Positions 5,538-22,702 of a DNA stretch of 64,000 nucleotides are shown piece by piece. Positions within the stretch are counted from its first letter, which is position 1; the number at the start of each line of letters is the position of its first letter. A program made the translations under genes and the position numbers. Where the stretch lies: contig UQBC01000004.1 of the NCBI GenBank assembly GCA_900539195.1, positions 9,639 through 73,638 of the forward strand, in the 5' to 3' direction. Source of the DNA: an uncultured Oscillospiraceae bacterium (lineage in GTDB: Bacteria; Bacillota; Clostridia; Oscillospirales; Ruminococcaceae). The notes below the pieces were generated by a model, which worked only from the letters and a program-made list of their open reading frames with translations, did no database searches and was not told where the DNA came from.

Positions 5538-5545
5538 TATACATA

Positions 5546-6169: not shown

Positions 6170-6197
6170 ACAAATACTGTTATGCGGAGGGAACACA

Positions 6198-6611: not shown

Positions 6612-6638
6612 CGATACTGTGTTTTGGAGAAAATTAGA

Positions 6639-7097: not shown

Positions 7098-7128
7098 GGC
7101 TATTTTTTGACAAAGGAACGAGTAAAAT

Positions 7129-8263: not shown

Positions 8264-8275
8264 TCGGAGGTTAGT

Positions 8276-8899: not shown

Positions 8900-8923
8900 T
8901 GGCTGAAAGAAAGGAGTACGCTT

Positions 8924-9121: not shown

Positions 9122-9140
9122 TCCCATAGGAGGTATAAAT

Positions 9141-9548
9141 ATGTTAAGCTTAGAAAAAGTAAAAAACGAATTGAAAACCTTTGGTTATGAATATGCTAAC
9201 AATATTCTATGCGGACATACTAAATCTAAGGTAAAATGGGTTTTGCCAACAGGGATTGTCAATGTAATGGCATTTGAACAAGCAACATCTTATTTGTTCG
9301 GATTTAGCGATAACGGGATTAACCTGTTTCCTGTTCACGGCGATTGGGACATTGCAGACAATTTATTCATTCCGTGGAGTGAAATAACAAGTTTCAAAAT
9401 GAAAAATGGATTATTAGAAAATGAAATGATCCTGTCAACATCAGCAATGAAAATAGAAATGAAAATCAACAAAGTAGTAGCGAATAATTCGTGGGTTAAG
9501 GATAATTTGAATTATTTGAAAGCCAAGAATTATTTTTATCATCAATGA
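9141..9548 (+). CDS. hypothetical protein (AT-rich ORF)
   Basis: ORF with GGAGG RBS. Confidence 0.3.
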   Translation: MLSLEKVKNELKTFGYEYANNILCGHTKSKVKWVLPTGIVNVMAFEQATSYLFGFSDNGINLFPVHGDWDIADNLFIPWSEITSFKMKNGLLENEMILSTSAMKIEMKINKVVANNSWVKDNLNYLKAKNYFYHQ

Positions 9549-9592
9549 CTCAGGTTGAAAATCATCTAAAATGAATAAGATCATAGGTCAGA

Positions 9593-9630
9593 AAAACCGT
9601 AGGGCTTTCATTGAAGCTCTACGGTTTTTA
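9593..9630. terminator. bidirectional rho-independent terminator between convergent genes
   Basis: AAAACCGTAG...CTACGGTTTT stem flanked by A/T runs. Confidence 0.5.
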
Positions 9631-9634
9631 ACAT

Positions 9635-11041: not shown

Positions 11042-11042
11042 A

Positions 11043-11747
11043 TCATTTCCCCGTTAATACTAACTTGTAGCCTAAGCCTTTTACCGTAATGAGGGATACC
11101 GGCTTTGACGGGTTAGCTTCAATTTTTTCTCGGATTCTGCGGATATGCGCCATCAGCGAGTTTTCATATCCGTATGGATTATCTCCCCACGCAGCTTCGC
11201 AGAGCTGATCGATGGTTACAATTCTTCCCGCATTGCGGTAGAGCGCCAGCAGTATATCGTGTTCTTTTGCAGTCAGCGGGAAATGATTATTTTCTTTTAT
11301 CACTTCGGCACGGTCAAAGTCAATTTGGCTTCCGGCAAGTTGGACGATAGGATCTTCGCCTTTGTAGTACCGCCGCAGAATGATTCCGATACGCAGGGAT
11401 AATTCTTTTGGCAGGAACGGCTTTACCATATAATCATCTGCACCAAGTCCCAATCCTTTCAGCTTGTCCTCATCTTCTCCACGGGCAGTTAAAAAGAGAA
11501 CTGGGACTTCGGTAAAAGTCCGCATTTGTTCAAACAGAGAAAAGCCGTTCCCATCGGGCAGCATTACATCGAGAATGGCAAGATCAGGCTCCCAATCCCT
11601 GCATATTTTCAGAGCTTCGGCTACTGTTCCAGCAGTCTTGATTGTTTTGAAACCGTCCTGCTCTAAAATAGATGTTACCATTTCACGCAGATCAGCCTCA
11701 TCATCTACGATGAGGATTTTTTTGTATTTTAAGTAATCATAGTCCAT
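11043..11747 (-). CDS. OmpR-family response regulator
   Basis: receiver domain with phospho-Asp DVMLPDGNG; winged-helix C-terminus. Confidence 0.9.
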   Translation of the reverse strand: MDYDYLKYKKILIVDDEADLREMVTSILEQDGFKTIKTAGTVAEALKICRDWEPDLAILDVMLPDGNGFSLFEQMRTFTEVPVLFLTARGEDEDKLKGLGLGADDYMVKPFLPKELSLRIGIILRRYYKGEDPIVQLAGSQIDFDRAEVIKENNHFPLTAKEHDILLALYRNAGRIVTIDQLCEAAWGDNPYGYENSLMAHIRRIREKIEANPSKPVSLITVKGLGYKLVLTGK

Positions 11748-11808
11748 AATGCAATTCTCCTTTTTCTATATTATAGCATATCATTCCTGCATTTTCGCAG
11801 TGCAGTTC

Positions 11809-11846
11809 AAATGTAAGGTAAATGTAAGGTAGAGAGAAGGTTGACA
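11809..11846 (+). promoter_or_regulatory. tandem 11-bp direct repeat (AAATGTAAGGT x2) abutting -35 TTGACA of ABC operon promoter
   Basis: read directly; OmpR-family regulators bind direct repeats upstream of -35. Confidence 0.4.
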
Positions 11847-11897
11847 CAAGGTTGCGCCTTTATACTAAAGACAACAAAGGAAAGGAGATTTCACAAT

Positions 11898-12653
11898 ATG
11901 AATATAATCGAAACTCAAAATCTGACGAAAACCTACGGCGATTTCACGGCAGTATCCCATCTGAATCTCCATATTCGCAAAGGAAGCGTTTATGGATTTT
12001 TAGGTCCGAACGGGGCGGGAAAATCCACAACGATGAAAATGTTTCTCGGTTTGACGCAGCCGACAGAAGGAAGCTTTCATATTGACGGAAAAACATACCC
12101 TTCAGACCGAGTTCCCATTTTGAAGGAAGTTGGTTCATTTATTGAAGCACCCGCCTTTTACGGGAATCTGAGCGGAGAGGAAAACCTTGAAATTATACGG
12201 AAAATTCTTGGGCTTCCAAAAAGCTGTGTCGATGACGCTCTGGAGCTTGTCGGCTTAACTGAATTTAGAAAAAGACTGGCAAAAAAATACTCTCTTGGTA
12301 TGAAGCAGCGTTTAGGTTTAGCAGGCGCATTGATCGGCAGACCGCCGATCCTGATTCTCGACGAGCCGACCAATGGGCTCGATCCGGTGGGTATTCACGA
12401 GATACGCACCCTGATTCGTTCCCTGCCGCAGAAATATGACTGCACGGTATTGGTTTCTTCTCACTTGCTTCCTGAAGTAGAACTTATGGCTGACGATATT
12501 GGTATTCTGAATCACGGTCATCTGCTGTTTGAAGGAACAAAGGAAGAATTGAAAACAAACGCTCGTGCCGCCGGATTCCCGACGGATAATCTGGAAGATA
12601 CTTTCCTTGCTATGATTGATGAAGATAATCGCAGGAGAGGAGGTACGGTATGA
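11898..12653 (+). CDS. ABC transporter ATP-binding protein (lantibiotic/bacitracin-type LanF-like)
   Basis: Walker A GPNGAGKST, signature variant YSLGMKQRL, Walker B ILILDEP; ATG 11898 after AAAGGAG. Confidence 0.85.
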   Translation: MNIIETQNLTKTYGDFTAVSHLNLHIRKGSVYGFLGPNGAGKSTTMKMFLGLTQPTEGSFHIDGKTYPSDRVPILKEVGSFIEAPAFYGNLSGEENLEIIRKILGLPKSCVDDALELVGLTEFRKRLAKKYSLGMKQRLGLAGALIGRPPILILDEPTNGLDPVGIHEIRTLIRSLPQKYDCTVLVSSHLLPEVELMADDIGILNHGHLLFEGTKEELKTNARAAGFPTDNLEDTFLAMIDEDNRRRGGTV

Positions 12654-13375
12654 GTCTCTTAATAGAATCCAAAAAGCTGAAGCGCACAGGCTATCTTCCT
12701 GCTTTTTTGGCAGGTGGCTTTCTTGCAGCAGCTTTTCCGGTTGTCTATATGATGGTAAAAGCAGAGGAAATGACTGCACTCGCAGGCAATCCGATTAACA
12801 TACTGATGTCTGCGAACTGGCAGATGATGGCGATGTTGAATATTCTCATTTCCATTTGCGGCGCTTGTATGATGTACCACACGGAATATGCCGATAACGG
12901 TATGCAGAAAATGTCGGTGCTGCCCATTCGTCAAGGTAGTATGTTCTTTGGAAAATTTCTAATTGCCGCTTTGGTATTATCCGCAATGGTGGTCATAGAA
13001 ATGGCAGTCTTAGTCGGCTGTGCAAAGTATTGGTTTCCAAGTTATGTGTTTGACCTGACCGAAATATTGAAAACCGCAGGTTTCCAAATTATAGTTACGC
13101 TGCCGACTGTAATGCTTATGCTGGTTATTGCGTCTGCCTGTAAGAATATGTGGGTATCCCTTGGTATTGGCGTGATTTTAGTATTTACGCTTTCCATTCT
13201 TCCGCAGGATAATATTGTGTTGAGCCTGTTCCCGTTTGCTTCCCCGTATCAAATGCTCTCTGCGGCAGTGGAAAATAGCCGTACAGCCTTATTTTTAGCT
13301 GTTTGCGGGATTGAAACGGTCGTGTTCGGTATTGCAGAAGTCCTTTATCTGCAAGTAAGGAGGTGTTTTGAATGA
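12650..13375 (+). CDS. ABC-2 type permease (LanE-like)
   Basis: 6-TM hydrophobic 241-aa protein ATGA-coupled to ATPase. Confidence 0.6.
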   Translation: MSLLIESKKLKRTGYLPAFLAGGFLAAAFPVVYMMVKAEEMTALAGNPINILMSANWQMMAMLNILISICGACMMYHTEYADNGMQKMSVLPIRQGSMFFGKFLIAALVLSAMVVIEMAVLVGCAKYWFPSYVFDLTEILKTAGFQIIVTLPTVMLMLVIASACKNMWVSLGIGVILVFTLSILPQDNIVLSLFPFASPYQMLSAAVENSRTALFLAVCGIETVVFGIAEVLYLQVRRCFE

Positions 13376-14142
13376 ATTTCTTATCATTAGTCGGAGTGGA
13401 ACTCAAAAAAATCCGCCGCTCCAAAATCTTATTGATCTTGCTGATCCCTGTCATTATGATGTGGATTCCAAGCATTATCAATGCGGATATGAACTTCGAC
13501 CTGAGAGGAATCCCGATTACGCCGGAAAACAACTTTTTCATTCAGGGCTTTATGGGTATGGTTTGGTTTATGATCCCGGCGTCGCTGGTCATCTGTACGG
13601 TACTGCTGAATCAAACGGAACGCTCCAATAAAGGGATTTTGAAAATGCTGTCCCTGCCGATTAGCACAACGAAACTATGTCTTGCTAAATTCACAGTCCT
13701 GATTTTGTTGGCGGCATTTCAGATGGTTATGTCCATAGGAGCGTACTATATCTGTGCGGCAATCGTTACCCATACGCAGGATTATAATTTTATCCTTGAG
13801 CCATTATATGTCTGCAAAAATGTATGTAGTATCTATGCCGCTGCAATTCCAATGGCTGCTGTATACCTTGCGGTTTCCACTTTAATTCAATCTCCCATTT
13901 TTTCGGTCGGTATCGGTCTGGCTTCGATTGTACCTTCCGTGCTTATGATAAACACAAAAATCTGGTTTGCCTACCCGATGAGCTACCCGTTCTATCTGAT
14001 AATGGTGGCGTATGGGAGAGCTGCTGAAGGTGTTTATGAAACACAAATCGCTTGGCTTCCGTGGTTGCCTGTTGCAGTCGGAATCACTATTTTGGCACTT
14101 GTCGTATCCTGTATGCGATACGGCGCATCTGAAAGGAGATAA
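13372..14142 (+). CDS. ABC-2 type permease (LanG-like)
   Basis: second 6-TM permease translationally coupled. Confidence 0.6.
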   Translation: MNFLSLVGVELKKIRRSKILLILLIPVIMMWIPSIINADMNFDLRGIPITPENNFFIQGFMGMVWFMIPASLVICTVLLNQTERSNKGILKMLSLPISTTKLCLAKFTVLILLAAFQMVMSIGAYYICAAIVTHTQDYNFILEPLYVCKNVCSIYAAAIPMAAVYLAVSTLIQSPIFSVGIGLASIVPSVLMINTKIWFAYPMSYPFYLIMVAYGRAAEGVYETQIAWLPWLPVAVGITILALVVSCMRYGASERR

Positions 14143-14147
14143 CTACA

Positions 14148-14435
14148 ATGAAAAACAAAATTTTAACTGCGATTTCTACCATTATGCTCTTTGTCCCGTG
14201 GACGATCCTGCCACTGCGTACCTTTGATTGGGCGCTGGAATCCCCGGTAGCGGAGATTATGGTTTACAGTTACGCCGCCTTTATGATTTTTTCAGGTATC
14301 TTTTCCATTCTCAGCTATACCAAAGGAAAAGTAAAATCCAAACTTATGCAGGTATGTGTCGTGATTAACAGTATTTATGCGGTTGGTGCAATCGCAATTA
14401 TCGGTATGAATATTGTAACGAGGATTGGCGGGTGA
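14148..14435 (+). CDS. small membrane protein
   Basis: three hydrophobic helices. Confidence 0.35.
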   Translation: MKNKILTAISTIMLFVPWTILPLRTFDWALESPVAEIMVYSYAAFMIFSGIFSILSYTKGKVKSKLMQVCVVINSIYAVGAIAIIGMNIVTRIGG

Positions 14436-14916
14436 TGATATGAAAAAAATAAAAATTCTGACTGCCGTTTTGCTTTCCTTATGTTTGGCTTTTGCTGTTA
14501 CAGGGTGCAGCGGCGACAACCTGAAAGATAGTGTTATAAACGGCTTTAATGATATGCTCCAGCATTTCAGCAAATATGCCCTTACGGACGAAAAAGATTT
14601 GCAGGGCGATAAGACCAAAGGGGAAGATACCTATACCGGCTCCTATACAGCAGATTATGAGGATTTCAATGATAAAGAATATATCTTTGGAGGTACTGCG
14701 TTAGAACGGGATAAAGGAAGTGAGCTTACTGTAACTTACGAGTTGACGGTTGATTCCGGCACGGCAAGGCTTTACTGGCTTGATAAGGGCGAGGAAAAAA
14801 TGATTGTCGATACAAGTAAAAACGGAACATATTCCGTTACCCTTGACGAAGGCGACAACTATCTTACTTTAGAAGGTAATGATTTTTGCGGCTCATTGCA
14901 GGTGGTTGTGGAATGA
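14425..14916 (+). CDS. lipoprotein
   Basis: signal peptide with lipobox VTGC. Confidence 0.45.
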   Translation: MAGDDMKKIKILTAVLLSLCLAFAVTGCSGDNLKDSVINGFNDMLQHFSKYALTDEKDLQGDKTKGEDTYTGSYTADYEDFNDKEYIFGGTALERDKGSELTVTYELTVDSGTARLYWLDKGEEKMIVDTSKNGTYSVTLDEGDNYLTLEGNDFCGSLQVVVE

Positions 14917-15159
14917 TTGCAAAAGCAAGAACAAATCCGCTAAATCTTTGTGCTATGCCTAATACTTTGGAATGTTCGATAAACCGCTAATTCACTCTTG
15001 TTCAGATAAAGCAGAGCTGGATTTAATTCGCCATCTACTTTGCCATTGTCGCCATTTCACTCGCCATTTAATTTGCCATTCCGTATTGTCGCATTGAGCA
15101 TAAAAGCGTTATCAATTTTATTTCCCCATTTTTTAGCATAACATTGAGTAGTGAAAAGA

Positions 15160-15200
15160 ATGAAAACCGCAGGACTTCGATATATAGCTCTGCGGCTTTC
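15160..15200 (-). terminator. rho-independent terminator downstream of DUF1016 gene
   Basis: GCCGCAG...CTGCGG stem followed by U-run on minus strand. Confidence 0.4.
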
Positions 15201-15214
15201 AGCTTTTCGATATT

Positions 15215-16225
15215 TTAGTCTCTTTTGATATGCTTTTGTATATCTTCCACAGACGGGAGCTGTTTGCTCAAAGCTTCAGGAAGCTCACTTGTAACTTTGT
15301 ATTCGCTGACACCGATTGGCTTTGACATATCTTTTAAGGCATATTCAGCGACTAATGCGTTTTTGCTTTTGCACAGCAACAGACCGATAGAAGGATTGTC
15401 ATTATCCTTTTTCAAAATCCCGTCAACGGCTGAGAGATAAAAGTTAAGCTGTCCAGCATATTCCGGCTTAAATTCTCCGGTTTTCAGCTCAATCACAACA
15501 TAGCAGCGAAGATTAAGGTTGTAGAACAGAAGATCAATGTAAAAATCATCGCCGCCGACATTGAGATGATATTGATTGCCGAGAAACGCAAATCCCGTTC
15601 CCAACTCTAAAAGCAGCTTCGTTACATCCTGAACAAGAGCCTGCTCTATATCCCGTTCTACCATATCTTCCTTGAAAGGGATAAAATCAAAAATGTATGG
15701 ATCTTTCATTGTTTGTACGGCAAGCTCACTCTGCGGCGAAGCAAGTCGACTTTCAAAGTTTGAAATCTTATCAGCAATAGCCTGCCGTTCATATAAGCCG
15801 CTTTCAATCTGATGAATCAAGACATTATGCGACCAGCCATTTTCTGCGGTCTTTCGTATATACCACTCTCTTTGCTTTTCTCCTTTAACCTTATCCAAAA
15901 TTGCAACATTGTGCGACCACGGAATTTGTGCAGACACCGTCTGCACAAATTGCTCATCAGGATAAGTGCTTGCAAATTTTGACATATATTTAAGGTTGCG
16001 AACAGAATAGCCCTTTGCGTTCGGGAACGAGAGCTTAATATCAGCCGCCAGATTTTCAATAAATTTATTGCCCCAAGATTTATGCTCGTTTATGATTTTT
16101 CCGATATTGTAATACAGCATAATCAGCTCTTTATTTACACTTAAAGTAGCTTTGTACTGCGCCTGCTGAATTTCCTGTTTGATAGTTTGCACCAAATCAA
16201 GATATTCGTTATTATTCATCAACAT
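15215..16225 (-). CDS. DUF1016 (YhcG-like) PDDEXK-family nuclease
   Basis: C-terminal D...ELK restriction-endonuclease-like motif (IDLLFYNLNLRCYVVIELK); YhcG-type N-terminal domain. Confidence 0.65.
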   Translation of the reverse strand: MLMNNNEYLDLVQTIKQEIQQAQYKATLSVNKELIMLYYNIGKIINEHKSWGNKFIENLAADIKLSFPNAKGYSVRNLKYMSKFASTYPDEQFVQTVSAQIPWSHNVAILDKVKGEKQREWYIRKTAENGWSHNVLIHQIESGLYERQAIADKISNFESRLASPQSELAVQTMKDPYIFDFIPFKEDMVERDIEQALVQDVTKLLLELGTGFAFLGNQYHLNVGGDDFYIDLLFYNLNLRCYVVIELKTGEFKPEYAGQLNFYLSAVDGILKKDNDNPSIGLLLCKSKNALVAEYALKDMSKPIGVSEYKVTSELPEALSKQLPSVEDIQKHIKRD

Positions 16226-16244
16226 CTTTATACCCTCCAGTTAT

Positions 16245-16832
16245 CTATTTCAAAAATTGATTGCGGTATTCCTGATGACGGAAACGGTAGCCCTGTGCGA
16301 TCAGCGTATCCGTTTTCAATGCGACCAAGTTTATATCCGAGTGCATTGCCCGTGCGATTTGCTGAATATCATACCCATTTTCGATATATTCCAGTATTTC
16401 ATCATCAGGCAGGGAGATTTGGGAAGCAAAGATGTTTGCCTCGTACTCCATCCGGCTTTGCCGCATATCGAAAATATTAAATTCCTTGAAGCCGCCGGCT
16501 TTGACCGCTTCTTCTCTATGTAATGCGTCGTGTCCAATCTCATGCAGCATTACGATACGCTCCATTACAGGGTGCAGATCGTCTTTTATGAAGATAAAAC
16601 GGTTACGCATTAAAACCTTGTATGCCCCTCGCTGTTTCTTGAAGGCTAATGGGATAACTTCTATGCCCAGTTCTTGTGCGATTCTATGCGGATCTCTTGT
16701 GCAAAGGTCATTTGCCAGCCGATTCGCCTTTCTGACAATCTCTAAAGTCTGAATATCCAAGAGCAAACACCCCCATTCTACTGCCAGTAAGTATATCTTA
16801 TCAAATACACTGTCCGAAAAAGAGGACATCAA
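16245..16832 (-). CDS. ImmA/IrrE-family metallopeptidase
   Basis: HEIGH HExxH motif; overlaps upstream XRE gene by 4 nt. Confidence 0.75.
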   Translation of the reverse strand: MMSSFSDSVFDKIYLLAVEWGCLLLDIQTLEIVRKANRLANDLCTRDPHRIAQELGIEVIPLAFKKQRGAYKVLMRNRFIFIKDDLHPVMERIVMLHEIGHDALHREEAVKAGGFKEFNIFDMRQSRMEYEANIFASQISLPDDEILEYIENGYDIQQIARAMHSDINLVALKTDTLIAQGYRFRHQEYRNQFLK

Positions 16833-16835
16833 GCG

Positions 16836-17240
16836 TTATTTCCGGTATTTTTTGGGAGTGTACTTTTTATTCTTCTCTTTGGCGATCCAGTACGCTTCCT
16901 GAATGCCTTTCATCATCTCGTCCAAATCCTCATCTGCAAGCTCGCCGCCTGCAAAAAGCCCCGTAACCTCTGCCATAAGCTCCTTTGCCTGTCTTGCGCC
17001 TTTGCTTCCGTATTTGGATTCAGCGTTCAGCAGAAATTCCTCGTCATCGGTAAGCAGATAGTTGACATCGACCTTCAGGACTTCCGCCATCTTATAATAG
17101 GTTTCCCTTTTTTTCGGGTAGCGGGTGCCAGCCTCATAATTCGATACTGTCCGCAGAGAAACGCCGATTGCTTTTGCAAACTCATCTTGCTTTAAGCCTG
17201 CCTTCGTGCGGGCTTCTTTTACTTTCTCACAGAATTTCAT
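16836..17240 (-). CDS. XRE-family repressor (ImmR/Tn916 Orf9-like)
   Basis: HTH_3 KQDEFAKAIGVSLRTVSNYEAG; ATG at 17240 with GGAGG RBS (track ORF extends to 17390 through promoter region). Confidence 0.75.
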   Translation of the reverse strand: MKFCEKVKEARTKAGLKQDEFAKAIGVSLRTVSNYEAGTRYPKKRETYYKMAEVLKVDVNYLLTDDEEFLLNAESKYGSKGARQAKELMAEVTGLFAGGELADEDLDEMMKGIQEAYWIAKEKNKKYTPKKYRK

Positions 17241-17281
17241 TTCATCTGACCTCCAAATTATTCGACCTGATTTGAAAATAT

Positions 17282-17390
17282 CTTGCGTATCTATATTGAC
17301 AAGCGCAAGTAAATTTCGTATAATGTCAATACGCAAGTAAGTTGCGTATATATAATAACCGAACTTGCGTGTTTTGTCAAGGGAGTTCAA
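17282..17390. promoter_or_regulatory. divergent promoter/operator region (lysogeny-switch-like)
   Basis: + strand TTGACA(17296)-17nt-TATAAT(17319); palindrome TACGCAAGTAAGTTGCGTA at ~17330-17348; repeated CTTGCGTA/ACGCAAG half-sites; minus-strand TTGACA-17-TATTAT near 17340-17380. Confidence 0.55.
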
Positions 17391-17453
17391 TCAATTAGCT
17401 TGAACTTTTATCTACCAACAAATGATACCCGTTTTAAGGATTGAGGCGAACAG

Positions 17454-18020
17454 ATGGGACGGAAAGATACAATCGCTGCGAAAAGTATTCGGAAAATGTA
17501 CGAGCAGCTTAATTTGAATCAATCGGATATATTCTCGAAAACAAAATTGCTTCTTGGCGTATACCGTGATGTGGTCTGGATTACGCTGAGCGAGTCTGCC
17601 CGTGTGAATGAGGAGCTGGCATATTACGGAGAAGAACTGGACAGCGCCCTTGTCTATTTGGAGCTGTTTGCGCCGGATACCGAGAAGCAGGAGTTTGAGA
17701 GCCGTATCAGCGCTTTGTTTGAGAACAAGTGGATGGTTGACCTGATTGATACCGCTATGGCGAAAATATATGACTACCATAACAACGGCAGGCTGTACCA
17801 CGAAATCATATCGAAAAGCTACCTGACAGCATTTCGGTATACGGAGAGCGAACTGCTCGATCTCTTGAATATGGAGCGCAGTACCTTTTACGACCGGAAA
17901 CGGGAAGCGATTTTGCTTCTCGGCGTATCTCTGTGGGGATATGCGATTCCGTGCTTCAAAGGAATCTTTAATATGAAGGGAGCTGATGAAAGCGGCGATA
18001 TTCCCGATTTTTTCAAATAA
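17454..18020 (+). CDS. HTH/sigma-like transcriptional regulator (Tn916 Orf7-like)
   Basis: C-terminal region resembling sigma-70 region 4/ArpU HTH; position divergent from repressor. Confidence 0.4.
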   Translation: MGRKDTIAAKSIRKMYEQLNLNQSDIFSKTKLLLGVYRDVVWITLSESARVNEELAYYGEELDSALVYLELFAPDTEKQEFESRISALFENKWMVDLIDTAMAKIYDYHNNGRLYHEIISKSYLTAFRYTESELLDLLNMERSTFYDRKREAILLLGVSLWGYAIPCFKGIFNMKGADESGDIPDFFK

Positions 18021-18506
18021 AGGCTTGTCCGACTAAAGTCCGACGAAATCCCTACTGAATGTCCGACCTTGCGTATGCTACACTGTGTATGCTGCCCGAA
18101 GAACGGCTTTCGTTTACAGAACGAGGCTGAAAACGAAATGGCAGAAAATTGGCACAGTTTTGCCGATGATACGGAAAAGCAAATCTGTTACAATTAGTAT
18201 GCCTAAAGCTTTGAGAATTTTTCTTGATTTTCAAATGCTGGTTGAATATCTTTTAGGCGGCAATACAGCAGCTTAGGCAAAACGAATTGAATATGTGTTT
18301 TGAAGAAGCAGTTATAGCTTTCAGCCTTCGGGCGTGAATGTTATAGCTGCTTTTTTTGTGCAGCCCTTTTCGCTTTTGTCAAGCGGAAAGGGAGCTTTAT
18401 GTCTATCACAGTATGGCAGGCGTTTGTATGTAGGTATCCGTGATCTCCGGAGTTTTTGATTGTGACCTTATATATCAAAAATTCCAAATTTAAGGAGATT
18501 ACGGAA

Positions 18507-19091
18507 ATGAAAAAACTTACAGTAAAAAAGCAGGTAGAATTATTTGCACAGGATTGTAAACTCATCAACCTTCAGTATGAGTATAGTGGTTTCACTGGAA
18601 CGGAAAAATGGGCAATTATAACGGAGCTGTCCGAAGAAGCATTGTGGGATAAGTACCCTGATGTCATCAGCAGGTATACGCCTTTTATACTTCTGTCAAT
18701 GGCACAGGGAGAAGTGATTAGTGAATCACATAGAAATAATGATAAATATGAAAAGCGCAGCAAAAGGACGATAGATGTATACGGTTACGAAGATGATATT
18801 TTTGAGCAGTTCCATCCGAAATCTATCGCACCGTTTATTGATCCGTTTGATAAAGCGGAGGAGGAACAGATCGAGGAAGAAAAAGAAAAGCTGCGGCAAT
18901 TAGAACTTTCTAAGGTAAGACAAGCGTTAAGTATGCTGCAACCTGTTCAAAGGGAGCGCCTTCTTAAATCCGTTTTGCTTGGGATTAGTTCAAGGAAAAT
19001 TGCGAAAGAGGAGGGCATAAATTATAGCTCCGTAGATAAGTCAATCGCTGCCGCAATAAAAAATTTCAAAAAATTTTATGAAAACCTCTGA
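18507..19091 (+). CDS. sigma-70 region-4-like HTH protein (Tn916 Orf8-like)
   Basis: C-terminal LLKSVLLGISSRKIAKEEGINYSSVDKSIAAAIKNF resembles sigma70_r4; ATG 18507 after AAGGAG. Confidence 0.5.
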   Translation: MKKLTVKKQVELFAQDCKLINLQYEYSGFTGTEKWAIITELSEEALWDKYPDVISRYTPFILLSMAQGEVISESHRNNDKYEKRSKRTIDVYGYEDDIFEQFHPKSIAPFIDPFDKAEEEQIEEEKEKLRQLELSKVRQALSMLQPVQRERLLKSVLLGISSRKIAKEEGINYSSVDKSIAAAIKNFKKFYENL

Positions 19092-19200
19092 TTTTGGGTG
19101 TGCATTTCGCACCCCTTTGTCCAAATGAGTGAAGGGGTATTTCTATTCCGGATATGAAATGCGCTTTCAAAACTCAATGAACAGAGAGGTTATACATAAA

Positions 19201-19752
19201 ATGAAGAAAACAGAAATCAGGCGTGGAGATATATTTTCCTACGATTTTGGCACAAGAATCGGCTCTATCCAATCAGGTGTAAGACCTGTGCTGGTAATTC
19301 AGGCAGACAATTTCAATGCGAATGCGCCTACTGTTATTGTTGCGTCCATTACGAGTGTAATAAAAAAGAGGTATTTGCCGTCCCACATTATTTTAGGCGA
19401 GGATTTTGGTCTGACGAAGCCTTCAATGGTGTTGCTTGAGCAAATACAGACTGTGAATAAAGATGATTTGACAGAGTATATTGGCTTTGTTGATGATGAG
19501 CGCCTTTGGAGACAGATTAACGCAGCCTTGAAAAAAACATTCGGTCTATGGCTTTACAACACTAACAGGATCGGCGACATTCGCTGCCTGTGTCCGAAAT
19601 GCTTAAACGACTATTTTCGCAATCCGAACTATGTTGTCAGACGCCTTGATCCTTTCGCTAAAAGTAAAGGCACTTGTGATAAGTGCAATGATAGAGGTTG
19701 GGATTATATCGTTTATGATAAACGCACCTCTTTCAAAGGGAAAGGGGTATAG
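19201..19752 (+). CDS. MazF/PemK-family toxin (mRNA interferase fold) fused to C-terminal zinc ribbon
   Basis: IRRGDIF...GSIQSGVRPVLVIQ...TVIVASITS PemK signature; C-terminal CLCPKC...CDKC; ATG 19201 after AGAGAGG. Confidence 0.6.
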   Translation: MKKTEIRRGDIFSYDFGTRIGSIQSGVRPVLVIQADNFNANAPTVIVASITSVIKKRYLPSHIILGEDFGLTKPSMVLLEQIQTVNKDDLTEYIGFVDDERLWRQINAALKKTFGLWLYNTNRIGDIRCLCPKCLNDYFRNPNYVVRRLDPFAKSKGTCDKCNDRGWDYIVYDKRTSFKGKGV

Positions 19753-19754
19753 GG

Positions 19755-19976
19755 ATGTCGCAAAGCAGGGAAAGGAAACGGAAGTTTGACATTCCTATAT
19801 GGTGTAAGGCAAATCTGTCGATTGAAGAAGCCGCAGCCTATTCCGGTATCGGAATGGCAAAGCTTTATGAGATGACAGAAAGTGAGGATTGCCCATTTGT
19901 CTTATGGATAGGTAGCCGGAGAATGATTAAGCGAAAAGCTTTTGATGAGTATATAGAGCGGCAATACTCAATTTAA
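19755..19976 (+). CDS. xis: excisionase, Tn916 Xis family (HTH_17), copy 1
   Basis: IPIWCKANLSIEEAAAYSGIG...WIGSRRMIKRKAFDEYI matches Tn916 Xis pattern. Confidence 0.7.
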   Translation: MSQSRERKRKFDIPIWCKANLSIEEAAAYSGIGMAKLYEMTESEDCPFVLWIGSRRMIKRKAFDEYIERQYSI

Positions 19977-20073
19977 TGAAAAAGTCAAGCCTGCGATGAG
20001 CCGATTCGCATAATTGGCTTATCGCAGGATATTGACTATGCTGTAACTACCAAAAGCAAGGAGGTACAGCAAT

Positions 20074-20295
20074 ATGCTTAGCAAAAAGCACAATCCGGAT
20101 ATGTCGAGAGTCCCGTTGTGGAAGAAAATGAATTTGACGGTGGAAGAAGCCGCCGAATACTCAGGAATAGGCGTATCTAAAATTAAAGAAATTTCAAATC
20201 AAAAAAACTGTCCCTTTGTCCTATGGAATGGAACAAAGCGGTTGATTAAAAGAAAACAATTCGAGGATTATCTCGAAACACAATATTCCGTCTGA
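20074..20295 (+). CDS. xis: excisionase, Tn916 Xis family, copy 2
   Basis: VPLWKKMNLTVEEAAEYSGIG...WNGTKRLIKRKQFEDYL. Confidence 0.7.
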   Translation: MLSKKHNPDMSRVPLWKKMNLTVEEAAEYSGIGVSKIKEISNQKNCPFVLWNGTKRLIKRKQFEDYLETQYSV

Positions 20296-20310
20296 GAGGA
20301 GGACAAGCTA

Positions 20311-20547
20311 ATGGATAATAAACTGACTGAAACAAGCAGTTCCAACAGGCGTGTGGCTGCTGTTCCAATTTGGGTAAAACCTTATTTGACGATAGAAGAA
20401 GCGGCAGAGTATACGGGAATAGGTAGGGATAAGCTTTATGAAATGACGAGCCTTGCCGATTGTCCGTTTGTGCTGTGGGTAGGCAATCGGAGAATGATTA
20501 AGCGCAGGATTTTTGATGAATACATTGAGCAAATGTATTCAATATGA
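20311..20547 (+). CDS. xis: excisionase, Tn916 Xis family, copy 3
   Basis: VPIWVKPYLTIEEAAEYTGIG...WVGNRRMIKRRIFDEYI. Confidence 0.7.
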   Translation: MDNKLTETSSSNRRVAAVPIWVKPYLTIEEAAEYTGIGRDKLYEMTSLADCPFVLWVGNRRMIKRRIFDEYIEQMYSI

Positions 20548-20557
20548 TGGAGGTTGT

Positions 20558-20797
20558 ATGGACGAAAAAATTTTAGCTTACAGAAGTGAACTCCAAAAGA
20601 GGTCGGAAAACACACAGTTTTGGACGAAAACGATTTTAACCGTTGAAGAAGCTGCCGCATACACCGGAATCGGAAGGGCAAAAATCCGCCAAATCATTTC
20701 ACAAGGGAATTGTCCTTTCACGGTAAATAACGGCACACAAATCTGTGTGATCCGAGAAGCGTTCATTGATTATCTTGATAAGCAGTTTCGCATATAG
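20558..20797 (+). CDS. xis: excisionase, Tn916 Xis family, copy 4 (most divergent)
   Basis: TKTILTVEEAAAYTGIGRAKIRQI...NNGTQICVIREAFIDYL; ATG 20558 after GGAGG. Confidence 0.65.
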   Translation: MDEKILAYRSELQKRSENTQFWTKTILTVEEAAAYTGIGRAKIRQIISQGNCPFTVNNGTQICVIREAFIDYLDKQFRI

Positions 20798-20811
20798 GAG
20801 GAGAGAGAATT

Positions 20812-22068
20812 ATGCCGAGAACAAAAAGAAAAGACAAGTCGAGAGCCGTGCTTCGGACAGGCGAATCGCAAAGGGCTGACGGAACTTATCAATTCCGATG
20901 GACTGACAGCAATCATAAGAGGTTTTGCGTATATGCCAAGACGCTTGATGAATTGCGCTACAAGGAAGAACAAATTAAAAAAGATAAGAGCGATGGCATT
21001 AAAGCCGAAGCCCGATATACGACGGTCAATGAGGTCTATGAGCTTTGGAAGGAACTGAAGCGAGGGCTGAAGAACAACACCTTTGAGAATTATAAATATA
21101 TGTATGAAACCTTTGTCCGTCATCAAATAGGCTCAAAAACAGTTTCATCGCTGAAAAAAACAGATATAAAGAGGTTTTATAATTACCTTACAGACGAACG
21201 CCAGCTAAAACCCTCGACCATTGACAGTATCCATACGGTATTACATCAAATTTTGGATATGGCGGTTGATGATGATTATATAAGAAATAATCCGTCAGAT
21301 AATGTACTTAGAGAGCTGAAGCAAGCACATTGCTTCAAAACAGAAAAGCGCAGAGCCTTAACCCGTCCCGAACAGGAATTATTTTTAAGCTACTTGAAAA
21401 ATACTCCCGCCGCACAATATTGGTATCCAATCTTTGCGGTTTTGTTAGGAACAGGACTTCGAGTTGGAGAACTTACCGGATTAAGATGGTGTGATGTCGA
21501 TCTGGAGAATGATGTTATTGATGTAAATCATACTTTGGTTTACTATGACCACCGCACCGATGGAAGCAAAAAAGGCTGCTATTTTAATGTCAATACGCCG
21601 AAAACTCCGGCTGGAAAGAGAAAAGTGCTAATGCTCAGCTTTGTGAAAGAGGCAATTATAATGGAAAAGGAAAGGCAGGAGCTGCTCGATCTTCATTGTA
21701 CCGCTACCATTGACGGATACACAGATTTCATTTTTATCAATCGCTTCGGCAATCCACAACATCAGGGAACGCTCAATAAAGCAATCCGCCGCATAATTCG
21801 TGACTGTAATGATGAGCAGTTTTTGAAGAACGAAAATCCCGAAGTGCTGCTTCCGCATTTTAGCTGCCATTCATTAAGACATACATTTACAACGAGAATG
21901 TGCGAAGCAGGAGTGAATGTCAAGGTCATTCAAGATACGCTTGGTCATAAGGATATTTCAACAACGCTTAACATCTATACCGATGTGACGAAGGAGCTTA
22001 GGCAGTCCGAGTTTGAAGGTCTTGACTCATATTTCAAAAGCGAGTATAATAAAGTGTCTAACGAATAA
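20812..22068 (+). CDS. int: tyrosine site-specific integrase, Tn916 Int family
   Basis: N-terminal LRTGESQRADGTYQFRW (Tn916 Int-like arm-binding domain); C-terminal R...HSLRHT...Y catalytic motifs. Confidence 0.9.
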   Translation: MPRTKRKDKSRAVLRTGESQRADGTYQFRWTDSNHKRFCVYAKTLDELRYKEEQIKKDKSDGIKAEARYTTVNEVYELWKELKRGLKNNTFENYKYMYETFVRHQIGSKTVSSLKKTDIKRFYNYLTDERQLKPSTIDSIHTVLHQILDMAVDDDYIRNNPSDNVLRELKQAHCFKTEKRRALTRPEQELFLSYLKNTPAAQYWYPIFAVLLGTGLRVGELTGLRWCDVDLENDVIDVNHTLVYYDHRTDGSKKGCYFNVNTPKTPAGKRKVLMLSFVKEAIIMEKERQELLDLHCTATIDGYTDFIFINRFGNPQHQGTLNKAIRRIIRDCNDEQFLKNENPEVLLPHFSCHSLRHTFTTRMCEAGVNVKVIQDTLGHKDISTTLNIYTDVTKELRQSEFEGLDSYFKSEYNKVSNE

Positions 22069-22231
22069 GTGGCATTTCTTGAGCGAGGATAAAAGCTTCT
22101 ACACCATTTACACCAATTTATACTCCAATCCACCGAAAAACTACACGAATTTATAGGGATATGGCGATTCAGGAAGAAACCCCGTTTAGACCTATTATGA
22201 GATATGAGGAGGTTTAGGAGAGATTGAAAAG

Positions 22232-22702
22232 ATGGTTGCTTTCGTCCCGACAATGAAGAGCCTTGATTCCGACAAGAAGCCGTCGGGTATTCCGAAAACC
22301 AAGGACGCTGTTGTTGAAGAAAAGATTGATTTTTCAAAGGTGAAGGTTGAGCCTTTGTTTGAAGAATATGTTGATTTTGAAACATTCTCAAAGTCAGATT
22401 TCCGTGCAGTAAAGGTTAAGGCTTGCGAGGCTGTTAAGAAGTCGAAGAAGCTTTTACAGTTCACTCTTGATGACGGCACAGGCACAGACCGCACAATTTT
22501 AAGCGGTATCCACGCTTATTATGAGCCTGAAGAGCTGGTTGGAAAGACTCTTATCGCTATCACAAATCTTCCGCCGAGAGCAATGATGGGCATTGACTCC
22601 TGCGGTATGCTCCTCAGTGCAGTTCACGAGGAAGAAGGCGAAGAAAAGCTCCACCTCCTCATGGTCGATAACCATATCCCCGCAGGTGCAAAGCTTTATT
22701 AA
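22232..22702 (+). CDS. tRNA-binding domain protein (MetRS C-terminal/CsaA/Trbp111-like)
   Basis: FRAVKVKACEAV...LVGKTLIAITNLPPRAMMGIDSCGMLLSA matches tRNA-binding OB-fold of MetRS C-terminus; own RBS and in-frame stop upstream. Confidence 0.7.
   Translation: MVAFVPTMKSLDSDKKPSGIPKTKDAVVEEKIDFSKVKVEPLFEEYVDFETFSKSDFRAVKVKACEAVKKSKKLLQFTLDDGTGTDRTILSGIHAYYEPEELVGKTLIAITNLPPRAMMGIDSCGMLLSAVHEEEGEEKLHLLMVDNHIPAGAKLY

What the first reader, a model, noticed from the sequence alone, without database searches (positions are those of the whole stretch)
14950..22230. Tn916-like regulation/recombination module without a conjugation or mobilization module, carrying a DUF1016 PDDEXK nuclease under ImmA/XRE control
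The element has an Orf9-like XRE repressor, Orf7/Orf8-like sigma-type HTH proteins, Xis and a Tn916-family Int. There is no relaxase, FtsK-like protein or T4SS gene between the proposed ends. Its cargo is an operon of XRE, ImmA and a YhcG-like PDDEXK nuclease (overlapping or closely spaced genes on the minus strand) and a MazF-like toxin. A nuclease placed under an ImmR/ImmA-type, possibly damage-responsive, switch is suggestive of a defence or abortive function hitch-hiking on a minimal integrative element.
Basis: partly seen in the sequence, partly recalled or inferred. Interest (0 to 1): 0.55.

Follow-up and report, generated by a model that had tools for sequence, protein, structure and literature searches.

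The report
Right end of a large conjugative element
The flagged 7 kb is not a stripped-down mobile element but the control-and-excision end of a much larger self-transmissible DNA element inserted in the lysyl-tRNA synthetase gene, a known kind of element that is very widespread in gut Clostridia and has an unusual row of four excisionase genes.

Summary
There are four tandem Tn916-type Xis genes, not one. The MazF-like gene is a conserved part of the module, not cargo.

The window starts inside the element. A contig 99.2% identical to window 1-1572 carries MobC, a MOB_P relaxase, a VirD4 coupling protein, TrbL, PrgI, VirB4 and a CHAP hydrolase directly upstream, all on the same strand.

The right end is real. 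Copies 99.4-99.9% identical stop matching at window 22258. The crossover core, GTCCCNACNATGAAR, encodes the conserved FPTMK end of the LysRS catalytic core. In a sister lineage the left end lies in lysS, with matching arm repeats.

There is no element end at 14950. So 14950-22258 is the regulation and recombination module of an ICE of at least 41.5 kb, specific for lysS, with a Tn1549-type conjugation module.

XRE and ImmA are the element's own switch, and they are present in relatives that lack the nuclease. YhcG is a lineage-specific passenger and a PADLOC defence candidate (PDC-S02). Its close homologues sit elsewhere without XRE/ImmA.

This is a new member of a known kind. The array of 2-5 Xis genes seen across the family is the noteworthy feature.

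The parts
1..14916 (+). Accessory (cargo) region of the same ICE. It holds a DUF2178/ABC pair, a run of small detoxification-type genes (flavin reductase, SRPBCC, DUF3795, DNA-alkylation repair, DUF3788, glyoxalase, GNAT, GyrI-like, truncated CAT), a two-component system (9635-11747, minus strand), an ABC-2 transporter (11898-14142) and a lipoprotein (14440-14916).
   Evidence: Pfam. The same order and 98.9-99.9% identity are seen in contigs with different right flanks. Window position 1 continues into the conjugation module.
15030..15085 (+). Five direct GCCAT(T) repeats (CGCCATC, TTGCCATT, TCGCCATT, TCGCCATT, TTGCCATT). Their role is unexplained. They may be a fossil arm-type site cluster or a scar from module fusion. 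They are not an active element end.
   Evidence: Four YGCCATT copies lie within 40 nt, against 12 on this strand in the whole 64-kb window. No copy of the core lies nearby.
15153..15195 (-). Hairpin (CCGCAG...CTGCGG) followed by a T-run on the minus strand. It is the likely terminator of the XRE-ImmA-YhcG operon.
   Evidence: Read directly from the sequence. The terminator scan missed it because the loop is 17 nt.
15215..16225 (-). YhcG-family PDDEXK nuclease (DUF1016_N + YhcG_C), the third gene of the repressor operon. It is a passenger specific to this lineage.
   Evidence: Pfam E 2e-65. PADLOC PDC-S02 E 2e-147. Absent from the relatives whose Int is 88% identical. Homologues of 84-85% identity sit elsewhere without XRE/ImmA.
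16245..16832 (-). ImmA-like M78 metallopeptidase (anti-repressor protease).
   Evidence: Pfam Peptidase_M78 E 2e-16. Orthologues of 71% identity occur in related elements.
16836..17240 (-). XRE/ImmR-like HTH repressor (134 aa from the ATG at 17240).
   Evidence: Pfam HTH_3 E 3e-13. Called as 134 aa in public contigs.
17275..17385 (.). Divergent promoter and operator region. On the plus strand: TTGACA-17-TATAAT (17296-17324). On the minus strand: TTGACA-17-TATTAT (17380-17352). There are 4-5 copies of TTGCGTAT/ATACGCAA, including a perfect 8-bp inverted repeat.
   Evidence: Promoter scan, 12/12 and 11/12 matches. Sequence read directly.
17454..18020 (+). 188-aa protein, the first gene of the plus-strand operon. 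It may be an ArpU/sigma-like regulator in the Orf7/Orf8 position.
   Evidence: No Pfam hit above threshold. Weak NCBIfam ArpU hit, E 0.004, below cut-off.
18507..19091 (+). Sigma-70 region-4 protein (Tn916 Orf7-like position). It is flanked by terminator-like hairpins at 18364-18392 and 19111-19138.
   Evidence: Pfam Sigma70_r4_2, 28.7 bits against a cut-off of 25.7. Present in 40 of 44 related loci. Hairpins.
19201..19752 (+). PemK/MazF-like RNase with a C-terminal extension of about 70 aa carrying CxxC...CxxC. There is no adjacent antitoxin gene. It is a conserved member of the module.
   Evidence: Pfam PemK_toxin E 1e-23. Present in 44 of 50 related loci. dN/dS 0.06 against L038.
19755..20797 (+). 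Array of four Tn916-type Xis paralogues: Xis1 19755-19976, Xis2 20074-20295, Xis3 20311-20547, Xis4 20558-20797.
   Evidence: All four are above the PF09035 gathering score. Paralogues are 37-67% identical, while orthologues in L038 are 71-82% identical, with dN/dS 0.08-0.14 for Xis2-4 (not computable for Xis1). Across the family there are 2-5 copies, and the copy next to Int is nearly always the Xis4 type.
20812..22068 (+). Tyrosine integrase of the Tn916/Tn1549 family. The catalytic residues R (GTGLRVGEL), H-x-x-R (HSLRH), H (LGH) and Y (LNIY) are all present.
   Evidence: Pfam PF02920 + PF00589. PDB 6EMY, E 8e-36, with aligned motifs.
22022..22050 (+). Outward-facing promoter-like site (TTGACT-17-TATAAT) at the 3' end of int. 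It points across the element end.
   Evidence: Promoter scan, 11/12. This is a consensus match only.
22101..22130 (+). Arm-type direct repeats in the right arm: ACACCATTT, ACACCAATTT, ATACTCCAAT.
   Evidence: These are the only two ACACCAWTT sites on the plus strand of the window. The same motif (TACACCAAT, two copies) lies in the left arm beside lysS in L196 and L202.
22244..22258 (+). Crossover core and right end of the ICE (attR): GTCCCGACAATGAAG, encoding VPTMK. It corresponds to the FPTMK end of the LysRS catalytic core.
   Evidence: Copies 99.4-99.9% identical stop aligning at 22258/22259. Flanks diverge right after ATGAAR. The core is found 180-336 nt after Int in 60 of 70 related loci. 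The same core lies inside lysS in L196 and L202.
22232..22702 (+). Orphan tRNA_bind ORF (156 aa). It is the displaced C-terminal domain of LysRS. The ICE end supplies its ribosome-binding site and first codons (MVAFVPTMK). The part after 22258 is not ICE DNA.
   Evidence: Pfam tRNA_bind E 2e-23. LysRS carries this domain as a C-terminal fusion in L196 and L202. Alleles differ between hosts carrying the same ICE.

Best explanation
Window 14950-22258 is the regulation and recombination module at the right end of a large integrative conjugative element (ICE). The ICE is at least 41.5 kb, and the window starts inside it. It is inserted site-specifically in lysS, at the codons for the conserved FPTMK end of the LysRS catalytic core.

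Shown:
- A mobilisation and conjugation module (MobC, MOB_P relaxase, DUF3801, ArdC-like, VirD4 coupling protein, TrbC/TrbL/PrgI/VirB4, sortase, CHAP hydrolase) lies on the same strand directly left of the window.
- Next comes a long cargo region (window 1-14916), then the module in question.
- The right end is at 22244-22258.
- In a sister lineage the left end lies in lysS, with the same core and the same arm-type repeats.
- The same ICE, 99-99.9% identical, sits next to different flanks and is reported from several Clostridia families.

Inferred mechanism:
1. The XRE repressor binds the TTGCGTAT/ATACGCAA operators between two back-to-back near-consensus promoters. It holds the plus-strand operon off while transcribing itself, ImmA and YhcG.
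2. On a signal, the ImmA-like protease inactivates XRE, as in ICEBs1.
3. Transcription then runs through the 188-aa protein, the sigma-like protein, the MazF-like RNase, the four Xis proteins and Int.
4. Int bridges the arm repeats and the core. With the Xis proteins as directionality factors, it recombines attL with attR and releases a circle.
5. All conjugation genes share this orientation, so read-through across the joined ends can switch on transfer, as in Tn916.
6. YhcG is a passenger expressed together with the repressor, that is, in the quiescent state. This resembles prophage defence genes carried in repressor operons, and it may act in defence or exclusion.
For: Conjugation genes contiguous with the window:
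- Window 1-8899 matches L110 9549-18447 at 98.9%. Upstream in L110-L115 lie TrbC, TrbL_2, PrgI, VirB4 (777 aa), sortase and CHAP.
- Window 1-1572 matches L120 19263-20834 at 99.2%. The same contig carries MobC, a PF03432 relaxase, DUF3801, an ArdC-like gene and the T4CP.

The element moves as one block:
- 17.8 kb at 99.4-99.9% identity ends exactly at 22258/22259 in L021 and L029, followed by unrelated DNA. Other copies are followed by diverse tRNA_bind alleles.
- ICE proteins are annotated MULTISPECIES or assigned to Christensenellaceae, Coprococcus and Dorea.

Target site:
- The core lies inside lysS in L196 and L202 (...IRDVLLFPTMK|...).
- Arm repeats TACACCAAT lie after the ICE-borne tRNA_bind copy.
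- Identity between the two hosts steps from 72-74% before the core to 87% after it.
- The core follows Int in 60 of 70 related loci.
- lysS is a published ICE target (PMC4701971).

Switch:
- Promoters match 12/12 and 11/12, with operator repeats between them.
- XRE and ImmA are conserved in relatives without YhcG.

Int and Xis family membership.
Against: - The genome this window comes from is not available beyond the window. The upstream conjugation module and attL are inferred from public contigs 96-99% identical to the window's first kilobases, not read from the same molecule.
- The left end was seen only in a sister lineage: L202, 96.5% identical to L116, and the L196-L200 deletion derivatives.
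- L116 and L119 lack the relaxase block, so some copies may not be self-transmissible.
- In L196 and L202 the arm repeats lie about 500 nt from the core, which is unusually far.
- No excised circle (attP) or empty attB for this exact ICE was found among the fetched loci.
- Every regulatory step (repressor cleavage, read-through, the role of each Xis) is inferred by analogy.
Confidence: 0.85

Rival explanations
1. One reading: 14950-22230 is an autonomous minimal integrative element (an IME without a relaxase). It has its own ends and carries the nuclease operon and MazF as cargo.
For: - No transfer genes lie between these coordinates.
- Five direct GCCAT(T) repeats at 15030-15085 resemble the arm-type repeats of family members. 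They lie where a left arm would be expected.
- The module behaves as an exchangeable block. In relatives whose Int is 88% identical, an 8-kb ImmA-to-Int block has a sharp left breakpoint in L038. In L027 the Xis/Int part is replaced by other integrases.
Against: - No copy of the core lies near 14950.
- The repeats differ from the ACACCAWT motif of the right arm, whereas that motif is found beside lysS.
- In every one of about 35 contigs that cover this junction, the DNA to its left is the same ICE cargo.
- Identity of 99.2-99.9% runs uninterrupted across 14950.
- In the relatives whose Int is 88% identical, the left breakpoint varies (3457, 3236, 662, <2), so it is a cargo boundary and not an end.
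Confidence: 0.04
2. The ICE copy in this genome is a fixed, decayed remnant. It can no longer excise or transfer, and its module is a fossil.
For: - attL was not seen for this genome.
- Deletion derivatives exist. L196-L201 lack most of the T4SS, and L116 and L119 lack the relaxase.
- The CAT-like cargo gene is truncated in the window, 163 aa against 207 aa.
Against: - Int has all catalytic residues.
- All module genes are intact, and orthologue comparisons give dN/dS of 0.03-0.14.
- The promoters are near-consensus.
- Near-identical copies next to different flanks argue for recent movement of this lineage.
- The closest upstream proxy, L120 at 99.2%, has the relaxase and T4CP.
Confidence: 0.12
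3. XRE-ImmA-YhcG is a self-contained, damage-inducible anti-phage system: a CapH/CapP-like regulator pair controlling a PDDEXK effector. It merely resides in the ICE.
For: - YhcG matches PADLOC candidate PDC-S02 (E 2e-147).
- XRE and ImmA give weak CapH and CapP hits (E 1e-9 and 2e-10).
- The three genes are tightly packed and share one terminator.
Against: - XRE and ImmA, with the divergent promoter facing the sigma-Xis-Int operon, are conserved in relatives without YhcG. The pair therefore belongs to the element's switch.
- In both contexts examined, YhcG homologues of 84-85% identity lie in other conjugative elements, between an adhesin gene and DUF6809/LPD28/SNF2-methylase genes, with no XRE/ImmA.
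- YhcG lies in the repressor's own transcript, so repressor cleavage would not obviously induce it.
- PDC-S02 is a candidate only.
Confidence: 0.12

Closest known systems
Tn1549 / Tn5252-superfamily ICEs of Firmicutes (vanB Tn1549 as the type)
   Same: - Int is closest to the solved Tn1549 integrase (6EMY, E 8e-36).
- Xis is of the Tn916 type.
- The conjugation module has MobC, a PF03432 (MOB_P) relaxase, DUF3801, a VirD4-type coupling protein, TrbL/PrgI/VirB4 and a CHAP hydrolase.
- Cargo lies between the transfer genes and the sigma-like/xis/int end.
   Different: - Integration is site-specific in lysS. From my own knowledge of the literature (not tested here), Tn1549 has a low-specificity preference for AT-rich sites.
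- There are two to five Xis genes instead of one.
- An XRE/ImmA pair and a MazF-like gene sit in the module.
- The cargo is different, with no van operon.
Tn916
   Same: - The Int N-terminal arm-binding domain (PF02920) and Xis (PF09035) match.
- The layout is shared: an XRE gene transcribed away from sigma-like genes, followed by xis and int at the element end.
- All transfer genes are oriented so that read-through across the circular joint is possible.
   Different: - The conjugation module is not of the Tn916 type. It has a VirD4 T4CP and a PF03432 relaxase, not the FtsK-like Orf21 and Rep_trans Orf20.
- The target is one specific gene.
- It also has an ImmA protease, a MazF-like gene and a multi-copy Xis array.
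Streptococcal ICEs integrated in the 3' end of lysS (Ambroset et al. 2016, PMC4701971)
   Same: - A tyrosine integrase targets the end of lysS.
- Short direct repeats are involved. Here at least 12 nt are shared (CCCGACAATGAA), against 13-17 bp reported.
- The element restores the gene end.
   Different: - The hosts are Clostridia, not streptococci.
- The conjugation module type differs (ICESt3-type in streptococci).
- Here lysS often carries an extra C-terminal tRNA_bind domain, so the site is internal. The ICE carries a replacement domain and leaves the host's domain as an orphan ORF.
ICEBs1 ImmR/ImmA switch
   Same: An HTH repressor gene is directly followed by an M78 metallopeptidase gene. 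Both are transcribed divergently from the excision operon, with repeated operators between the promoters.
   Different: - int is not in the repressor operon. A PDDEXK nuclease occupies that place.
- Extra sigma-like regulators lie downstream.
- Repressor cleavage and the inducing signal are untested.
PADLOC PDC-S02 (DUF1016/YhcG single-gene defence candidate) and CapH/CapP-regulated defence systems
   Same: YhcG is a full-length match to the PDC-S02 models. The XRE/ImmA pair resembles CapH/CapP in domain content.
   Different: - PDC-S02 is an untested candidate.
- The regulator pair here is conserved with the ICE, not with the nuclease.

Membership tests
Tn916-family recombination module | Tyrosine integrase with the Tn916-type N-terminal arm-binding domain and an intact catalytic domain | tested here: met
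   PF02920 E 8e-19 and PF00589 E 9e-30. The R, HxxR, H and Y residues align with Tn1549 Int.
Tn916-family recombination module | Tn916-type excisionase next to int | tested here: met
   Four ORFs exceed the PF09035 gathering score. Xis4 matches 1Y6U at E 4e-5.
Tn916 family (whole element) | Tn916-type conjugation module (FtsK-like coupling protein, Rep_trans/MOB_T relaxase) | tested here: not met
   The coupling protein is of the VirD4/TraG type (T4SS-DNA_transf, E 5e-64). The relaxase is PF03432.
Tn916 family (whole element) | Low-specificity insertion into AT-rich targets with variable coupling sequences | tested here: not met
   The same core, GTCCCNACNATGAAR in lysS, is found in 60 of 70 related loci.
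Integrative conjugative element (ICE) | Integrase, relaxase, coupling protein and VirB4-containing T4SS within one pair of att sites | tested here: inconclusive
   All components are present on contigs 96-99% identical to the window's start (L110, L120). The right att site is defined. The left att site was seen only in the sister lineage L202/L196, not in this genome.
Integrative conjugative element (ICE) | Excision to a circle and conjugative transfer | not testable with these tools
   There is only indirect evidence: near-identical copies next to different flanks and in several families. No attP junction was found among the loci.
   There is no core or matching arm site at about 14950. High identity continues across 14950 into cargo and then into the T4SS genes.
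ImmR/ImmA-type switch | HTH_3 repressor gene adjacent to an M78 peptidase gene, divergent from the excision operon, with operators between | tested here: met
   Pfam. Promoters and repeats.
ImmR/ImmA-type switch | Signal-dependent cleavage of the repressor by the peptidase | not testable with these tools
   This needs biochemistry or genetics.
CapH/CapP-regulated defence system | The regulator pair is conserved together with the effector it controls | tested here: not met
   YhcG homologues of 84-85% identity lack XRE/ImmA neighbours. XRE/ImmA occur without YhcG in relatives.
PADLOC PDC-S02 | Full-length match to the family models | tested here: met
   E 1.9e-147, residues 4-334. The family is itself only a candidate defence system.
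Type II MazEF toxin-antitoxin | MazF/PemK toxin domain | tested here: met
   PF02452 E 1e-23. The residues I take, from my own recollection of E. coli MazF, to be the catalytic Arg and Thr appear in GVRPVLV and ITS. This was read by eye with no reference alignment.
Type II MazEF toxin-antitoxin | Adjacent small antitoxin gene | tested here: not met
   The upstream gene is the 194-aa sigma-like protein and the downstream gene is Xis1. No MazE/PemI-type ORF is present.
lysS-targeting ICEs | Crossover inside the conserved 3' end of the lysS catalytic core, with the gene end restored by the element | tested here: met
   FPTMK core. An ICE-borne replacement tail is present, and identity steps up at the core. 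Precedent in PMC4701971.

The most novel reading that the evidence does not exclude
The conserved array of two to five Tn916-type Xis paralogues, together with an orphan MazF-like RNase fused to a zinc ribbon, may be a multi-component directionality and regulation system not described for Tn916/Tn1549-type elements. The copy next to Int is nearly always of one type, and the upstream types vary in number. Different Xis paralogues might bind different sites in unusually long arms, since the core-to-arm distance is about 500 nt at attL. They might choose which pair of cores recombines when several lysS-targeting elements sit in tandem. They might also double as transcription factors that couple excision to transfer.
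Probability: 0.3. Interest if true: 0.55.

Novelty: new member of a known kind. Interest (0 to 1): 0.3.

Why it matters
The finding itself is ordinary: the integrase end of a conjugative element. It would be an annotation error to call this region a minimal mobile element or a stand-alone defence island.

Three things give it some value.

1. This ICE is extremely common in human-gut metagenomes. Single ICE proteins occur in thousands to tens of thousands of collection blocks. It crosses family boundaries within the Clostridia, and it carries a large set of detoxification and resistance-type cargo. Close relatives carry a Tet ribosomal-protection gene.

2. It shows a tidy solution to integrating in an essential gene. 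The element brings a replacement C-terminal tRNA-binding domain for LysRS and leaves the host's own domain as an orphan ORF. That ORF is currently annotated as 'methionine--tRNA ligase subunit beta'. In hosts whose lysS has a short tail, the ICE would add a domain to LysRS.

3. The family-wide multi-Xis array and the orphan MazF-like gene are testable oddities in an otherwise well-understood recombination system.

Tried and rejected
- I searched the window for a second copy of the junction, using the 24-mer with up to 3 mismatches and the degenerate 15-mer with up to 2. Only the attR copy turned up, plus chance-level hits. There is therefore no attL in the window.
- I first read the invariant left side and hypervariable right side as a possible integron-like capture site with a fixed integrase. 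I rejected this once the left side proved to be the ICE itself and the right side proved to be different hosts or tandem neighbours.
- I looked for arm-type repeats on the left in relatives whose Int is 88% identical, within 10 kb of Int. None were found, and the left breakpoints vary, so those elements are also large.
- Walking left through the DUF4379 protein gave only deletion derivatives (P0037) or a contig that ends there (P0043). The ParA route, through P0317, reached lysS.
- A relaxase was not found in L116 or L110 by Pfam, NCBIfam or PDB. The 295-aa gene next to the T4CP is ArdC-like, not a relaxase. The relaxase block turned up in most close relatives, including L120.
- No attP-type junction (Int, core, the ICE's own left end) was found among the fetched loci.
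- Rfam at gathering threshold gave no RNA family in the window. There are no tRNA genes.
- Literature searches for tandem or multiple excisionase genes in such elements found nothing relevant. Absence from this open-access library does not prove novelty.
- PADLOC gave no hit for MazF-like, sigma-like, the 188-aa protein or Xis1.

Full report
**What is at the coordinates**

ORF listing and Pfam confirm the gene calls.

On the minus strand:
- a YhcG-family PDDEXK nuclease (15215-16225; DUF1016_N + YhcG_C)
- an ImmA-like M78 peptidase (16245-16832)
- an XRE HTH_3 protein (16836-17240)

On the plus strand:
- a 188-aa protein with no domain above threshold (17454-18020)
- a sigma-70 region-4 protein (18507-19091)
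- a PemK/MazF-like protein with a C-terminal Cys-rich extension (19201-19752)
- four consecutive Tn916-type Xis genes, not one (19755-19976, 20074-20295, 20311-20547, 20558-20797; all above the PF09035 gathering score)
- a 418-aa tyrosine integrase with the Tn916 N-terminal DNA-binding domain (20812-22068)

The integrase is most similar to the solved Tn1549 integrase (6EMY, E 8e-36), with all catalytic residues aligned. Its N-terminus matches the Tn916 Int arm-binding domain. Xis4 matches the Tn916 Xis structure 1Y6U.

**The right end is real and precisely placed**

Exact-protein look-ups for the integrase, the downstream tRNA_bind ORF and the upstream lipoprotein returned about 30 public contigs. 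All have the same gene order to the left of int and very different content to the right.

Alignment shows identity up to window 22258, 190 nt after the int stop codon, and abrupt divergence after it. Two contigs are 99.4% and 99.9% identical over 17.8 kb and stop aligning at 22258 and 22259.

The junction sequence is TTCGTCCCNACNATGAAR. The only polymorphic positions are the two third-codon positions. The same core lies 180-336 nt downstream of int in 60 of 70 related loci from many Clostridia genera.

Between int and the core lie direct repeats ACACCATTT/ACACCAATTT (22101-22130). These are the only such sites on this strand of the window.

**What the target is**

The core encodes (F/V)PTMK. 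In contigs L196-L200 and L202 the same core lies inside lysS, at ...IRDVLLFPTMK, the end of the class II LysRS catalytic core. There it is followed by a linker and a tRNA_bind domain fused to LysRS. About 40 nt after the stop come the repeats TACACCAAT in two copies, which match the window's right-arm motif. ICE genes follow: DUF4379, ParA, ParB.

L202 8533-10720 is 96.5% identical to L116 1-2180, the lineage that continues into the window.

Between the two hosts L202 and L196, lysS is 72-74% identical before the core and 87% after it. This places the element boundary at the core.

The element therefore carries a replacement C-terminal tail for LysRS at its left end. The ORF at 22232-22702 is the displaced host tail. 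The ICE end supplies its ribosome-binding site and first nine codons (MVAFVPTMK). This explains why the 'tRNA_bind protein' has many alleles next to the same ICE.

Many hosts have a short lysS tail (...PTMKSLDK*). In those hosts the ICE would add a domain to LysRS.

The 3' end of lysS is a published target of streptococcal ICEs, with 13-17-bp direct repeats (PMC4701971).

**The left boundary at 14950 is not an end, and conjugation genes are contiguous**

No second copy of the core exists in the window.

Window 1-8899 matches L110 9549-18447 at 98.9%. In all six contexts shown for the window's first gene, the upstream 10 kb holds, all on the plus strand: TrbC-like, TrbL_2, PrgI, a 777-aa VirB4, sortase, Cys_rich_VLP, a 578-aa CHAP hydrolase, then PadR/HAAS, XRE and YpsA.

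Further left, in L116, lie an ArdC-like protein and a 597-aa VirD4/TraG coupling protein.

L116 itself lacks a relaxase. Most close relatives carry DUF3991, YodL/DUF3846, MobC/NikA-like, a PF03432 relaxase and DUF3801 immediately upstream of the ArdC-like gene.

The closest proxy for the window is contig L120. Window 1-1572 matches L120 19263-20834 at 99.2%, and L120 has MobC, relaxase, DUF3801, the ArdC-like gene, T4CP and TrbL on the same molecule.

The element thus spans at least 19.3 kb left of the window plus 22.3 kb inside it, at least 41.5 kb in total. A composite of L202, L116 and L110 gives about 43 kb for the variant without a relaxase.

**The family**

Integrase relatives of 76-100% identity were fetched from 80 genome contigs of Oscillospiraceae/Ruminococcaceae, Lachnospiraceae and other Clostridia. 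Nearly all share the order sigma-like, MazF-like, two to five Xis, Int, core.

Among 60 loci with enough upstream sequence, the Xis copy number was 0 (1 locus), 2 (2 loci), 3 (19 loci), 4 (34 loci) and 5 (4 loci). The copy next to int is of the Xis4 type in nearly all loci.

Paralogues in the window are 37-67% identical. Orthologues in L038 are 71-82% identical. dN/dS is 0.08-0.14 for Xis2-4 and could not be computed for Xis1. dS is saturated, so these values are rough but well below 1.

A subgroup whose Int is 88% identical to the window's is 95-99% identical in DNA across genera. In that subgroup a Y-family polymerase lies between XRE and the sigma-like gene, and a Tet ribosomal-protection gene lies left of ImmA. 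YhcG is absent. The XRE/ImmA pair therefore belongs to the element backbone, and YhcG is an add-on specific to this lineage.

**The switch**

Between XRE and the 188-aa gene lie two back-to-back promoters:
- plus strand, TTGACA-17-TATAAT at 17296-17324 (12/12)
- minus strand, TTGACA-17-TATTAT at 17380-17352 (11/12)

Four to five copies of TTGCGTAT/ATACGCAA are interleaved with them, including a perfect inverted repeat.

By analogy with ICEBs1 ImmR/ImmA and Tn916, I infer the following sequence. XRE represses the plus-strand operon. ImmA inactivates XRE on a signal. The operon then expresses the sigma-like proteins, the MazF-like RNase, the Xis proteins and Int. Excision follows. Read-through across the circular joint reaches the conjugation genes, which share the same orientation.

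A promoter-like site at 22022-22050 points outward across the end.

YhcG is in the repressor's transcript. Its terminator is a hairpin plus T-run at 15153-15195, read. On this model YhcG is expressed in the quiescent state rather than induced.

**The nuclease and the defence idea**

YhcG is a full-length match to PADLOC candidate PDC-S02 (E 2e-147). XRE and ImmA give weak CapH and CapP hits.

However, both YhcG homologues examined (84-85% identity), whose contexts proved to be essentially the same element, lie in other conjugative elements. They sit between a SpaA adhesin gene and DUF6809/LPD28 and a giant SNF2-methylase gene, with no XRE/ImmA.

The association is therefore not a conserved three-gene system. 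I rate a stand-alone damage-inducible defence module at about 0.12.

**Unexplained or incidental**

- Five direct GCCAT(T) repeats at 15030-15085 resemble the family's arm-type consensus, but they have no core nearby and differ from this Int's motif. They may mark an old module fusion.
- The sequence after the orphan ORF (22703-22837) is homologous to the ICE left-arm region of L196, including degenerate repeats. The orphan may itself be a relic of an earlier element.
- In several contigs the ICE's right core is followed by the left arm of another element with its own repeats: TTACGCCAAT, TTGACCAA, TTGACAACAA or TTACACCA. This indicates tandem accretion at lysS.
- A second small element, with a MobA_MobL relaxase, an XRE and a tyrosine integrase, lies at about 24.5-30.4 kb.

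**Verdict**

The interpretation as a conjugation-less minimal element is wrong.

The region is the regulation and recombination end of a large, widespread ICE that is specific for lysS and has a Tn1549-type conjugation module with Tn916-type Int/Xis. It is a new member of a known kind.

The most interesting residue is the conserved multi-Xis array with its MazF-like companion. I found no published description of it, but the search covered only an open-access library.

Noticed in passing
window 19755-20797; also L030-L109: Tandem arrays of Tn916-type Xis paralogues upstream of Int: four in the window and 2-5 across the family. The copy next to Int is nearly always the Xis4 type. Xis2-4 are under purifying selection (Xis1 not computable). 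I found no description of this in the searched literature.
   Followed up: partly
window 19201-19752: A MazF/PemK-like RNase with a C-terminal extension of about 70 aa carrying CxxC...CxxC and no adjacent antitoxin. It is conserved between the sigma-like gene and Xis in 44 of 50 related loci. The likely catalytic Arg and Thr appear retained.
   Followed up: partly
window 22232-22702; L196 6154-8085; L202 5564-7615: The ICE splits a LysRS-tRNA_bind fusion. It brings its own tRNA_bind tail for lysS and leaves the host tail as a 156-aa orphan ORF, annotated in NCBI as 'methionine--tRNA ligase subunit beta'. In hosts with a short lysS tail (..PTMKSLDK*) the ICE would add a domain to LysRS.
   Followed up: partly
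window 15030-15085: Five direct GCCAT(T) repeats lie between the lipoprotein gene and the YhcG terminator. They resemble the family arm-type consensus AC(A/G)CCA(A/T)T, but no core lies nearby.
   Followed up: partly
window 22703-22837: The sequence after the orphan ORF is homologous to the ICE left-arm region of L196, including degenerate arm repeats and the same terminator hairpin. The orphan may be the fossil left end of an older lysS-targeting element.
   Followed up: no
L013 ~1600-1730; L029, L030, L032, L034 just after the core: In several contigs the ICE's right core is followed by the left arm of another element with its own direct repeats (TTACACCA, TTACGCCAAT, TTGACAACAA, TTGACCAA). 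This indicates tandem accretion of different elements at lysS.
   Followed up: partly
window 24516-30337: A second small mobilisable element: DUF6061, ArsR, SdpI, a MobA_MobL relaxase (26051-27604, minus strand), XRE (28335-28955) and a tyrosine integrase (29012-30337). A related element with an RM system sits at a different position in L002.
   Followed up: no
window 30527-30666 and 31601-31741: Direct repeats of about 140 nt (79-90% identical) flank a single CAAX-protease gene just downstream of the second integrase. They may be an att site duplication.
   Followed up: no
window 8276-8767: The CAT-like cargo gene is truncated to 163 aa here and in some copies. It is 207 aa in other copies of the same ICE (L021, L022, L023).
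   Followed up: no
L027 14706-20477: One copy of the ICE keeps YhcG through MazF-like, but the Xis array and Int are replaced by two other integrases (Arm-DNA-bind_4 type) with NikA-like genes. This is a swap of the recombination module.
   Followed up: no
L042 655-2574; L038 4706-5941: Close relatives of the module (Int 88% identical) carry a 639-aa Tet ribosomal-protection gene left of ImmA and a Y-family DNA polymerase between XRE and the sigma-like gene. They are 95-99% identical across genera.
   Followed up: partly
L116 1-6600, compared with L120 1-6600: Two variants of the ICE differ upstream of the ArdC-like gene. One has DUF3991-YodL-MobC-relaxase-DUF3801. The other has hydrolase, SnoaL, GNAT and hexapeptide-transferase cargo and no relaxase.
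   Followed up: partly
L001-L010, right of the orphan ORF: Strains with the same orphan allele differ greatly between the orphan and the MATE gene (DNA-alkylation repair, DUF7010, an RM-carrying IME, a PT-HINT protein, relaxase fragments). The region is a local hotspot.
   Followed up: no
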